A stretch of DNA of 64,000 bases from a virus (Duplodnaviria; Caudoviricetes). Position 1 is the stretch's first letter. Each line of letters begins with the position of its first letter. Position numbers and translations under genes: made by a program. The stretch covers positions 34,608-98,607 of the IMG/VR virus record IMGVR_UViG_3300028888_000085; one strand, 5' to 3'. The notes beneath the pieces were generated by a model, which saw nothing but the letters and a program-made list of their open reading frames with translations, had not been told where the DNA came from and searched no databases. Of the stretch, positions 39,649-39,964 are shown piece after piece.

Positions 39649-39964
39649 GTATTACACCCATAATAAATGCCATACCTCTAAGACTGCACAGCTTCTTGTC
39701 ATCATTGTCGAAGTGTATTACACCCATAATAAATGCCATACCTCTAAGACTTTTATTGGCGTGTGGTGAGGTCTGATGGGCGTTACACCTGTAATAAATG
39801 CCATACCTCTAAGACTTCTATGGTGCTGTCGTCTGTAATCTGAACGTATTACACCCATAATAAATGCCATACCTCTAAGACTCTGTATAACACCATAACA
39901 AATTTCATACCTATGAGACATACCAAATGTGTGACACCCATAATGAATGTCATACATCTGAGAC
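39649..39964 (-). CRISPR. Array C: 6 repeats; spacers 30, 29, 30, 3, 9 nt
   Basis: Repeats at 39649, 39715, 39780, 39846, 39885, 39929 (+ strand GTATTACACCCATAATAAATGCCATACCTCTAAGAC). Confidence 0.93.

What the first reader, a model, noticed from the sequence alone, without database searches (positions are those of the whole stretch)
39649..39964. Array polarity: decay at the promoter end implies new spacers enter next to the scaffold, without cas1/cas2 in view
Seen: in arrays B, C, D and E the most degenerate repeats, the collapsed spacers (3 and 9 nt in C) and the partial repeat (E) are scaffold-distal. Uniform 30-nt spacers suggest ruler-based integration, yet no cas1/cas2/csn2/cas4 is in the window. 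On the opposite strand the junction reads TTTAGAG|GTATT, loosely like the type II-A leader-anchoring junction ATTTGAG|GTTTT. Inference: host type II adaptation machinery is borrowed, and the newest spacer automatically becomes the cis-fused guide.
Basis: inference. Interest (0 to 1): 0.75.

Follow-up and report, generated by a model that had tools for sequence, protein, structure and literature searches.

The report
Polar guide arrays of phage IscB
A large rumen phage carries a small Cas9-ancestor nuclease (IscB) and six short CRISPR-like guide arrays, each fused to a copy of its helper RNA. The arrays are old and decayed at the start of the transcript and change at the end next to the helper RNA, but what adds new guides is still unknown.

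Summary
Window 39649-39964 is a six-repeat mini-array (36-nt repeats; spacers 30, 29, 30, then 3 and 9 nt). It directly abuts a ~210-nt omegaRNA/tracr-like scaffold. It is one of six such cassettes serving a single phage-encoded, CRISPR-associated IscB (46567-48390, minus).

- **Strand:** covariation puts the RNA on the IscB-sense strand. Transcription runs decayed end, then array, then repeat:anti-repeat, then scaffold.
- **Decay:** repeats decay away from the scaffold (permutation p=0.0005).
- **Strains:** at arrays C and D the distal fossil trailer is conserved and the scaffold-proximal part varies.

Three corrections apply.

- This polarity is already known from type II-C arrays, so it is not new in itself.
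- The proximal changes I could dissect carry marks of gene conversion between cassettes, not clean integration: clustered substitutions at the junction, swapped scaffolds, and one spacer found in two different cassettes.
- "Borrowed host type II adaptation" is untested. No cas1, cas2 or cas4 lies in 98.6 kb (the csn2 search was uninformative), but about 60% of the genome is unseen, no host array with a like repeat start turned up, and no protospacer was found.

The scan's first readers noted sister cassettes in this genome and look-alike tracts in another. Verdict: a new variant of a known kind, with moderate-to-high interest.

The parts
39649..39964 (-). Mini CRISPR array C (the finding). It has six 36-nt repeats with spacers of 30, 29, 30, 3 and 9 nt. 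It is transcribed on the minus strand from 39964 toward 39649. R5, the 9-nt remnant and R6 (39885-39964) form a fossil trailer.
   Evidence: The 9-nt remnant and R6 are conserved in L011, L012, L017 and L034-36; R5 (degenerate copy in L034-36) and the 3-nt remnant are not in all of them.
39685..39714 (-). Spacer C1, the scaffold-proximal spacer. It would be the guide fused in cis to repeat R1 and the scaffold, forming a natural single guide.
   Evidence: The pairing of R1 with the cis anti-repeat is calculated at -33 kcal/mol. Its use as a guide is inferred.
39427..39648 (-). Scaffold C, an omegaRNA/tracr-like RNA. It comprises the conserved loop (CCTCTAAA in sense), an anti-repeat (about 39595-39639) and the structured body.
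   Evidence: Alignment of 9 copies. The sense-strand consensus fold has 73 pairs, 19 of them with compensatory changes, and invariant G-U pairs. The antisense strand folds much more weakly.
39352..39393 (.). GC-rich hairpin (14-bp stem) with T-runs on both strands, directly after scaffold C. It is probably a bidirectional terminator ending the cassette transcript.
   Evidence: Read from the sequence. The scan tool did not list it because its loop is 14 nt. Its function is inferred.
39965..40750 (-). A 261-aa ORF of unknown function. Its stop codon directly abuts the distal fossil repeat R6, so array C lies in the 3' UTR of this operon.
46567..48390 (-). iscB, 607 aa, with a PLMP motif, a split RuvC domain and an HNH domain. 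It is the only IscB in the 98.6-kb contig.
   Evidence: Pfam finds RRXRR 8e-44 and HNH 2e-13. It matches OgeuIscB structures at E=2e-42. There is one copy in the contig. Nearest relatives are ~420-aa IscBs at 41-49% identity.
48391..48829 (-). Cassette D. Scaffold D is 48391-48608. Array D is 48609-48829, with four repeats and spacers of 17, 30 and 30 nt. It lies directly upstream of iscB on the same strand, which is the IscB/omegaRNA layout.
48922..48931 (-). Phage promoter box RTGGTGCTGT, about 95 nt upstream of the distal repeat of array D in the sense direction.
   Evidence: There are 8 copies in the window against 0.26 expected. Promoter function is inferred.
61380..62014 (-). Cassette E. 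The scaffold is 61380-61592. The array is 61593-62014, with six repeats plus a partial repeat. No nuclease gene is attached.
   Evidence: Cassette E (window ~61400-62061) is missing as a clean indel in related phages L020 and L021. It is also absent from 14 further related contigs.
62073..62082 (-). Promoter box upstream of array E, followed by TGGTATAAT.
29926..30250 (+). Cassette B. It has two repeats (the distal one with a 1-nt deletion), one 30-nt spacer, then the scaffold.
24871..25125 (+). Cassette A. It is a solitary repeat fused to a scaffold. The 5' flank 24841-24870 would serve as its guide.
46546..46581 (-). Degenerate repeat-like sequence overlapping the iscB stop codon. In strain L013/L014 a further four-repeat array follows it.

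Best explanation
Array C is the guide array of one of six omegaRNA-scaffold cassettes. Together they load a single phage-encoded, CRISPR-associated IscB nuclease.

The cassette is transcribed on the minus strand in this order: fossil repeats, then spacer-repeat units, then repeat R1, then a loop, then the anti-repeat, then a ~170-nt scaffold. R1 folds onto the cis anti-repeat, so the scaffold-proximal spacer becomes a natural single guide. Upstream units could be used only by pairing in trans.

The arrays are polar. The transcript-5' end, distal from the scaffold, is an old decaying trailer. Content changes at the scaffold-proximal end. This is the same polarity as type II-C CRISPR arrays.

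What is shown and what is inferred:
- **Shown:** the strand, the decay gradient, the trailer conserved across strains, and the variable proximal part.
- **Shown:** much of the proximal change is homologous recombination or gene conversion between the six paralogous cassettes and between co-circulating phages.
- **Inferred:** the 30 +/- 1-nt spacers originally entered through a Cas1-Cas2-type ruler integrase acting at the scaffold-repeat junction, with duplication of R1.
- **Unknown:** whether that integrase belongs to the host or lies in the unseen ~60% of the phage genome.
For: - **Effector and layout.** The order array, scaffold, iscB on one strand is seen.
- **Strand.** The sense consensus fold is -76.8 kcal/mol, with a covariation term of -5.2, 19 compensatory pairs and invariant G-U pairs. 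The antisense fold is -48.1 kcal/mol with a covariation term of -1.05.
- **Cis pairing.** R1 pairs with its own anti-repeat at -31 to -38 kcal/mol. Distal repeats E5-E7, B2 and C5 fall to -14 to -22, near the shuffled control (mean -13, minimum -20).
- **Decay gradient.** p=0.0005.
- **Array C across strains.** Four strain types all end in ATACCAAAT plus a degenerate repeat beside the 261-aa gene. Their proximal spacers differ: C1-C3 here, X1 and D2 in L011, Y1 in L034-36.
- **Array D across strains.** The same degenerate terminal repeat occurs in all strains. L011 equals L013 plus one extra proximal unit, and its R1 and R2 differ by 1 nt.
- **Spacer turnover.** There is complete spacer replacement at about 4% iscB divergence, one unit of change at 1.9%, and none at 0.5%.
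- **Recombination.**
  - Of 10 substitutions between L011 and L013, 8 fall in 71 columns at the junction and none in the next 174.
  - Scaffold D is 89% identical between this strain and L015, while iscB is 99.5% identical and the array is identical.
  - Spacer D2 sits in array D here and in the array-C position of L011.
  - R1 at the C position of L011 is identical to this strain's F R1.
- **Ruler.** Thirteen of this genome's 17 spacers are 29-30 nt and the unit length is 65-66 nt.
- **Precedent.** Type II-C arrays acquire at the last transcribed repeat and mutate the first one (PMC12080349). CRISPR-associated IscB carries an array with repeat and anti-repeat upstream of the ORF (PMC12660989, PMC11610941).
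Against: - No acquisition event is seen cleanly. The one single-unit difference is embedded in a conversion tract, so proximal variability could arise entirely from recombination anchored in the 210-nt scaffold homology.
- R1 is constrained by its pairing, which alone would keep the proximal end intact. The gradient does persist when R1 is left out (p=0.004).
- Array F shows no gradient. Array D's shortened spacer is proximal.
- No protospacer was found, so neither function nor spacer origin is demonstrated.
- No RNA data could be obtained.
- All strain data come from short-read metagenome contigs, which can mis-join at repeats. Against that, the key configurations recur in independent samples: L013/L014, L015/L016, L034/35/36, and this contig with L012.
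Confidence: 0.6

Rival explanations
1. The host's type II Cas1-Cas2 (with or without Csn2 and Cas9) is used in trans. The conserved scaffold-repeat junction acts as a leader-anchoring sequence, and every new spacer becomes the cis-fused guide.
For: - The geometry is 36-nt repeat and 30-nt spacer, and the repeat start GTCTCAGAGGTATG resembles type II repeats.
- No Cas1, Cas2 or Cas4 lies in 98.6 kb; the Csn2 search was uninformative.
- The loop next to R1 (CCTCTAAA) is invariant in nine scaffold copies that are otherwise 80-91% identical.
- R1 and R2 are identical or differ by 1-2 nt in array C here, in L011 array D and in the L013 extra array.
- Spacer GC is 47.2% against 43.6% for the phage genome (p about 0.012).
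- Trans use of host adaptation by mobile elements has precedent in the type IV-A3 preprint and in viral mini-arrays listed.
Against: - No GTDB representative genome holds two repeats with this 14-nt start at array spacing. That search is strict and exact-match only.
- The host is unknown.
- About 60% of the phage genome is unseen.
- The likeness to the II-A anchor is 5 of 7 bases on the non-transcribed strand.
- The invariant loop may equally be an RNA or protein contact, or part of an alternative 8-bp pairing with the repeat's 5' part.
- The observed proximal change carries a recombination signature.
Confidence: 0.25
2. The phage encodes its own adaptation module (cas1-cas2, perhaps with cas4 or csn2) in the part of the genome not covered by this contig.
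For: - The contig is estimated to be 38% complete.
- The same IscB protein occurs on a 237-kb contig.
- A few Cas9d loci do carry adaptation genes (PMC9755519).
Against: - Six cassettes and iscB spread over about 75 kb have no adaptation gene nearby.
- Most Cas9d loci are found without adaptation genes in the same operon (PMC9755519).
- Slow spacer turnover (one unit per about 2% nucleotide divergence) fits rare, opportunistic acquisition better than a resident integrase.
Confidence: 0.15
3. No polar integration takes place in this phage lineage. The arrays were inherited or captured once, for example from a cellular CRISPR-IscB or type II locus. Only the cis-fused proximal unit is under selection, so distal units decay. 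All strain differences come from recombination between cassettes and between phages.
For: - A clustered-substitution tract lies at the only single-unit difference.
- Scaffold swapping occurs.
- A spacer and a repeat variant are shared across different cassettes.
- Whole-cassette presence or absence is seen for cassette E.
- Distal repeats lose their pairing potential.
Against: - Recombination cannot create spacers, yet about 25 distinct spacers occur in a handful of strains that are 96-99.5% identical in iscB, and arrays are fully replaced at about 4% divergence.
- The uniform 30 +/- 1 nt length needs a ruler.
- No cellular donor array was found.
Confidence: 0.2

Closest known systems
CRISPR-associated IscB (Altae-Tran et al. 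2021, as summarised in PMC11610941; DelIscB, PMC12660989)
   Same: - It is an IscB with a PLMP motif, RuvC and HNH.
- The non-coding RNA lies upstream of the ORF on the same strand.
- That RNA contains a short CRISPR array plus repeat and anti-repeat regions joined to an omegaRNA-like body.
- No adaptation genes are nearby.
   Different: - This one is phage-borne.
- The protein is 607 aa, about 190 aa more than its ~420-aa nearest relatives.
- There is one nuclease gene but six dispersed scaffold-plus-array cassettes, five of them orphan.
- This report adds population data on array polarity and cassette recombination. The papers I could read do not describe these. PMC12660989 states that processing of the RNA is unresolved.
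Type II-C CRISPR-Cas9 arrays (PMC12080349; PMC3737331)
   Same: - Repeats are 36 nt and spacers 30 nt.
- New spacers enter at the last repeat with respect to transcription.
- The first, oldest repeat accumulates mutations.
- The array is transcribed toward the acquisition end.
   Different: - No cas9-cas1-cas2 operon is in view.
- No promoter-like sites were found inside the repeats on the sense strand.
- The tracr-like RNA is fused in cis to the last repeat instead of being a separate gene.
Type II-A leader-anchoring sequence
   Same: A short conserved sequence directly abuts the acquisition-end repeat. TTTAGAG here compares with ATTTGAG there.
   Different: - Only 5 of 7 bases match.
- It lies on the strand opposite to the crRNA.
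- It abuts the other end of the repeat relative to the crRNA orientation.
- It lies inside a transcribed RNA loop.
Virus-borne mini-CRISPR arrays and huge-phage CRISPR systems without adaptation genes (PMC6858448; PMC11656645; Al-Shayeb et al. 2020, from memory)
   Same: The arrays are short, sit on viral genomes and lack cas1-cas2. They are presumed to depend on machinery supplied in trans, and inter-virus conflict is the proposed role.
   Different: Here the phage brings its own effector and its own tracr-like scaffold. No protospacer was found, so the target class is unknown.
Standalone omegaRNAs acting in trans (Altae-Tran 2021, as summarised in PMC11610941)
   Same: Scaffold copies without an adjacent nuclease gene are presumed to load a nuclease encoded elsewhere.
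   Different: Here each orphan copy carries a CRISPR-type repeat and usually an array.

Membership tests
IscB (OMEGA RNA-guided nuclease) | N-terminal PLMP domain, a split RuvC and an inserted HNH domain | tested here: met
   Pfam finds RRXRR at 8e-44 and HNH at 2e-13. The translation shows the HPLMPT motif, D58 in LGIDTG, and the HNH and RuvC-III motifs. phmmer against IscB structures gives E=2e-42.
IscB (OMEGA RNA-guided nuclease) | A structured omegaRNA of about 200 nt encoded upstream on the same strand, with the guide at its 5' end | tested here: met
   The 210-nt scaffold lies directly upstream of iscB. The sense-strand fold shows covariation. Rfam found no match at gathering score over the whole window, and an E-value search of the D cassette gave only two weak microRNA-family matches and no HEARO/omegaRNA-type family.
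IscB (OMEGA RNA-guided nuclease) | Residence in an IS200/IS605 element with TnpA or recognisable transposon ends | tested here: not met
   There is no Y1 transposase in the 98.6 kb. The gene sits among phage genes, and its guide position is occupied by a CRISPR array.
CRISPR-associated IscB | A CRISPR array upstream of the omegaRNA-like region, with the repeat complementary to an anti-repeat | tested here: met
   The layout matches the description in PMC12660989.
Type II CRISPR-Cas (adaptive system) | cas1 and cas2 adaptation genes in the locus | tested here: not met
   Cas1 and Cas2 gave no hit in the 98.6-kb contig, and neither did Cas4. The Csn2 search also gave no hit, but its control did not ring. 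The rest of the genome is not testable here.
Type II CRISPR-Cas (adaptive system) | A Cas9 effector with a REC lobe and no PLMP domain | tested here: not met
   A PLMP motif is present and the best matches are IscB structures. YnpsCas9 scores only 2e-9.
Type II-C-like array architecture | Acquisition at the transcription-downstream repeat, with the upstream (oldest) repeat degenerate | tested here: inconclusive
   The decay gradient and the conserved upstream fossil with variable downstream part in strains fit this. The one single-unit change carries a recombination signature, so acquisition itself is not shown.
Type II-C-like array architecture | A promoter inside each repeat | tested here: not met
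   The simple consensus scan found no sigma-70-like site on the sense (minus) strand within array C. The phage's own promoter type is not covered by this scan.
Type II-A leader-anchoring sequence | A conserved leader 3' end (ATTTGAG class) abutting the first repeat on the transcribed strand, required by Cas1-Cas2-Csn2 | tested here: inconclusive
   The junction is conserved but only 5 of 7 bases are alike, it is on the opposite strand, and it lies inside an RNA loop. The function cannot be tested here.

The most novel reading that the evidence does not exclude
In this phage the omegaRNA scaffold doubles as the CRISPR leader. Its invariant apical loop (CCTCTAAA) next to repeat R1 would be the anchoring site for a Cas1-Cas2 integrase supplied in trans by the host's type II system. 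Each acquisition would duplicate R1 and at once create a new natural single-guide RNA. The six cassettes would then spread and trade such guides by recombination. That would be a living example of the IscB-to-Cas9 transition, in which guide, repeat, tracr and leader are still one RNA gene, maintained by a virus.
Probability: 0.17. Interest if true: 0.85.

Novelty: new variant of a known kind. Interest (0 to 1): 0.6.

Why it matters
CRISPR-associated IscBs are regarded as intermediates between transposon IscB and Cas9. In the papers I could read, how their arrays are filled and processed is described as open (PMC12660989).

This phage lineage offers a natural data set: several co-circulating strains and six paralogous cassettes. 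It shows three things.
- The arrays have type II-C-like polarity, with the fused tracr-like scaffold at the dynamic end.
- Guides, repeats and scaffolds are exchanged as modules.
- Whole cassettes come and go.

This makes two questions directly testable. Can a type II integrase use a scaffold-repeat junction as a leader? Does one small nuclease serve a distributed set of orphan guide genes?

On the practical side, the locus gives a compact IscB with natural single-guide RNAs and many co-varying scaffold variants.

Tried and rejected
**Protospacers: none found.**
- This genome and 12 related loci.
- GenBank phages queried with arrays C, D, E and F.
- IMG/VR exact scans with spacer D2 and 24-nt seeds of C3 and E1.
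- JGI metagenomes with the C1 seed.
- GTDB genomes with the F2 seed.
- Near relatives of the window are withheld from these collections, so targets in sister phages would be invisible.

**Host array with a similar repeat.** No GTDB genome holds two copies of GTCTYAGAGGTATG 62-70 nt apart.

**More cassette copies or relatives from public collections.** All returned nothing. tblastn of the 935-aa neighbour against GenBank phages gave no match. tblastn of IscB against GenBank phages gave only hits below 36% identity.

**Whole related genomes of 234-243 kb.** They could not be searched for cas1 because the records are not held.

**Rejected readings.**
- *A TnpB/Cas12-style reading* (scaffold 5', then repeat, then spacer 3' on the plus strand). 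A TnpB-like ORF does exist at 19248-20927. I rejected this because the antisense fold is far weaker, with C-A breaks where the sense strand has G-U, and because synteny with iscB fits the sense strand.
- *ORF 30269-31960 downstream of cassette B as a second effector.* It has no Pfam domains and a low-complexity sequence.
- *Cassette E's guides target the empty site of relatives* (a homing model). No match was found.

**The Altae-Tran 2021 paper** is not held. Statements about it come from PMC11610941 and PMC12660989.

Full report
**What is there**

The window is part of a 98.6-kb IMG/VR viral contig judged 38% complete. It comes from a rumen-type huge phage. The same IscB protein is seen on a 237-kb contig, and relatives are 234-243 kb.

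The finding's coordinates hold a mini CRISPR array of six 36-nt repeats. Spacers are 30, 29 and 30 nt, followed by 3- and 9-nt remnants. The repeat core occurs 13 times in the window against 0 expected from shuffles.

Each array directly abuts a conserved ~210-nt scaffold. The end of the scaffold nearest the array holds an anti-repeat. The contig has six such cassettes:
- A: 24871-25125
- B: 29926-30250
- C: 39427-39964
- D: 48391-48829
- E: 61380-62014
- F: outside the window, at contig positions 21768-22191

**The effector**

ORF 46567-48390 (minus strand, 607 aa) is an IscB.
- Pfam finds RRXRR, HNH and RuvC.
- The translation shows the PLMP motif and intact catalytic motifs.
- It matches solved IscB structures at E=2e-42.
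- It is the only copy in the contig.
- Outside its own 97% cluster, its nearest relatives are ordinary ~420-aa IscBs at 41-49% identity. Atlas look-alike clusters, many of them viral, include IscB-family clusters.

On the minus strand the order is array D, scaffold D, iscB. That is the IscB/omegaRNA layout with the guide replaced by an array. This arrangement is already described for 'CRISPR-associated IscB' (PMC11610941, PMC12660989).

**Which strand is the RNA**

I compared nine scaffold copies: six from this genome and three strain variants. On the IscB-sense strand the consensus fold is -76.8 kcal/mol, with a covariation term of -5.2, 73 pairs, 19 pairs with compensatory changes, and several invariant G-U pairs. 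The opposite strand gives -48.1 kcal/mol with a covariation term of -1.05, and C-A breaks appear at those same positions.

Array C is therefore read on the minus strand, from 39964 down to 39649 and into the scaffold. R1 pairs with the cis anti-repeat at -31 to -38 kcal/mol. The scaffold-proximal spacer is thus the guide of a natural single-guide RNA. This last step is inferred, because no RNA data could be obtained.

A phage promoter box, RTGGTGCTGT, occurs 8 times against 0.26 expected. It lies just upstream of the distal ends of arrays D and E. Array C instead follows directly on the stop codon of a 261-aa gene, and a strong hairpin at 39352-39393 closes the cassette.

**The observation**

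Differences from the repeat consensus rise with distance from the scaffold. The within-array permutation test gives p=0.0005, or p=0.004 without R1.

| Array | Differences, proximal to distal |
|---|---|
| B | 0, 7 |
| C | 1, 1, 5, 1, 6, 5 |
| D | 3, 4, 3, 7 |
| E | 4, 3, 6, 5, 6, 7, 9 |
| F | 5, 5, 3, 5 |

Distal repeats also lose calculated pairing with every anti-repeat. No Cas1, Cas2, Cas4 or TnpA HMM hit exists in the 98.6 kb. The Csn2 search also found nothing, but its control did not ring, so it is uninformative.

The 17-nt spacer of array D is proximal. Array F shows no gradient. About 60% of the genome is unseen.

Contigs carrying IscB or neighbouring proteins at 90% identity or more were fetched.

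*Array C.* Four strain types all end with ATACCAAAT plus a degenerate repeat beside the 261-aa gene. Their proximal parts differ:
- this strain and L012 carry C1-C3
- L017 shares C2 and C3
- L011 carries X1 and D2
- L034-36 carry a single spacer, Y1

*Array D.* The same degenerate terminal repeat and flank occur in all strains.
- L013 and L014 hold three spacers.
- L011 holds the same three plus one more at the scaffold end, and its R1 and R2 differ by 1 nt.
- This strain, L012, L015 and L016 hold a completely different set.

Against iscB nucleotide identity, spacer change scales as follows: none at 99.5%, one unit at 98.1%, and full replacement at about 96%.

**But the changes look like recombination**

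- **Clustered substitutions.** In the L011/L013 alignment, the 65-nt indel is flanked on the scaffold side by 8 substitutions within 71 columns (anti-repeat and first hairpin). There are none in the following 174 columns and 2 in the 294 distal columns. My own binomial estimate for such clustering is about 3e-6. This is a gene-conversion tract from another cassette, possibly with unequal alignment of repeats, and not a clean integrase event.
- **Swapped scaffolds.** Scaffold D of L015 and L016 is only 89% identical to this strain's scaffold D. Yet iscB is 99.5% identical and the array is identical. Orthologous scaffolds are no closer than paralogues, which are 80-91% identical.
- **Shared spacer and repeat.** Spacer D2 sits in array D here and in the array-C position of L011. 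R1 at that L011 position equals this strain's F R1.
- **Cassette presence or absence.** Cassette E (window ~61400-62061) is missing as a clean indel in a phage that is 86-89% identical. It is absent from 14 further related contigs. L013 has an extra array right after iscB, where this strain keeps only a fossil repeat over the stop codon.

Recombination between cassettes is thus demonstrated. Polar integration is not.

Recombination cannot invent spacers, though. About 25 distinct spacers of 30 +/- 1 nt in a few close strains call for a ruler-type integrase at some point. This is an inference.

**Comparison with what is known**

Reversed polarity relative to transcription is not new. [quoted passage not shown] Those arrays are transcribed against the cas operon (PMC3737331).

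The II-A likeness is 5 of 7 bases, about a 1% chance per junction by my own binomial, and it lies on the non-transcribed strand. The junction-side loop CCTCTAAA is nevertheless invariant in all nine scaffolds, so some constraint exists. It could be a DNA-level anchoring site, an RNA or protein contact, or an alternative 8-bp pairing with AGAGGTAT of the repeat. I cannot tell these apart.

**Host borrowing**

Nothing positive was found. No representative genome has a matching repeat pair. No protospacer was found in any collection. The host is unknown. Spacer GC (47.2%) is slightly above the phage's own GC (43.6%, p about 0.012), which weakly suggests a foreign source. Borrowing remains a reasonable but untested idea, with precedents in other mobile elements.

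**Verdict**

- The polarity inference is supported.
- The mechanism is only partly supported. The documented proximal change carries the signature of inter-cassette gene conversion, and integrase-mediated entry at the junction is inferred.
- The host-borrowing claim is untested.

The system is a new variant of a known kind: a CRISPR-associated IscB that is phage-borne, has a distributed set of guide cassettes, and shows type II-C-like polarity.

**Caveat**

All strain evidence rests on short-read metagenome contigs. Recurrence of each configuration in independent samples argues against chimeras, but long reads are needed.

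Noticed in passing
window 19248-20927 (+): A TnpB-like ORF with Cas12f1-like TNB, HTH_OrfB_IS605 and OrfB_IS605 domains, and a match to phrog_506. It is a second, unrelated RNA-guided-nuclease family in the same phage and is not adjacent to any cassette.
   Followed up: partly
window 40754-43021 (-), compared with L011:6649-9990, L017:5620-8961 and L034:1-2997: The SF1 helicase is 755 aa here but 1113-1115 aa in sister strains. The extra part carries Hom_end and LAGLIDADG hits, so an intein or homing endonuclease is present in some strains and absent in others.
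   Followed up: no
window 7915, 24338, 25871, 33419, 48922, 56599 and 62073; also 39820 inside spacer C3: The motif RTGGTGCTGT occurs 8 times against 0.26 expected, mostly in intergenic positions pointing into genes or arrays. One copy lies inside spacer C3, which may mean C3 was taken from a related phage. The best match to C3 in this genome is only 20 of 30 bases (contig position 3777).
   Followed up: partly
window 46546-46581; L013:11790-12131: A degenerate repeat overlaps the iscB stop codon. In strain L013/L014 a four-repeat array (spacers 31, 31 and 25 nt) follows it, and gene order around iscB differs from this strain. Cassettes seem to act as recombination substrates that rearrange the genome.
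   Followed up: partly
window 61400-62061, compared with L020:2565-2616: Cassette E is a clean ~660-nt insertion or deletion just downstream of a promoter box. About 50 unrelated nucleotides occupy the site in the relative, and there is about 15 nt of similarity at the scaffold-3' boundary.
   Followed up: partly
window 48391-48608, compared with L015:8532-8748: The middle ~175 nt of scaffold D is replaced (89% overall identity) between strains whose iscB is 99.5% identical and whose array D is identical. Scaffolds are exchanged as modules.
   Followed up: yes
window 48609-48661: The guide fused in cis to the iscB-linked scaffold is only 17 nt, close to the ~16-nt guides that I recall for transposon IscBs. 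The other proximal spacers are 30 nt.
   Followed up: no
window 23565-24320, 48941-49819 and 49840-50679: Three DNA methyltransferase genes are present: one N6_N4_Mtase and two adjacent, convergent D12-class genes. The pair lies next to the promoter of array D.
   Followed up: no
P0001, roughly residues 410-607: The IscB is about 190 aa longer than its ~420-aa relatives. The extra residues lie in the part after RuvC-III and include a long charged helical stretch. The Atlas model aligns about 413 residues spread over residues 1-588.
   Followed up: no
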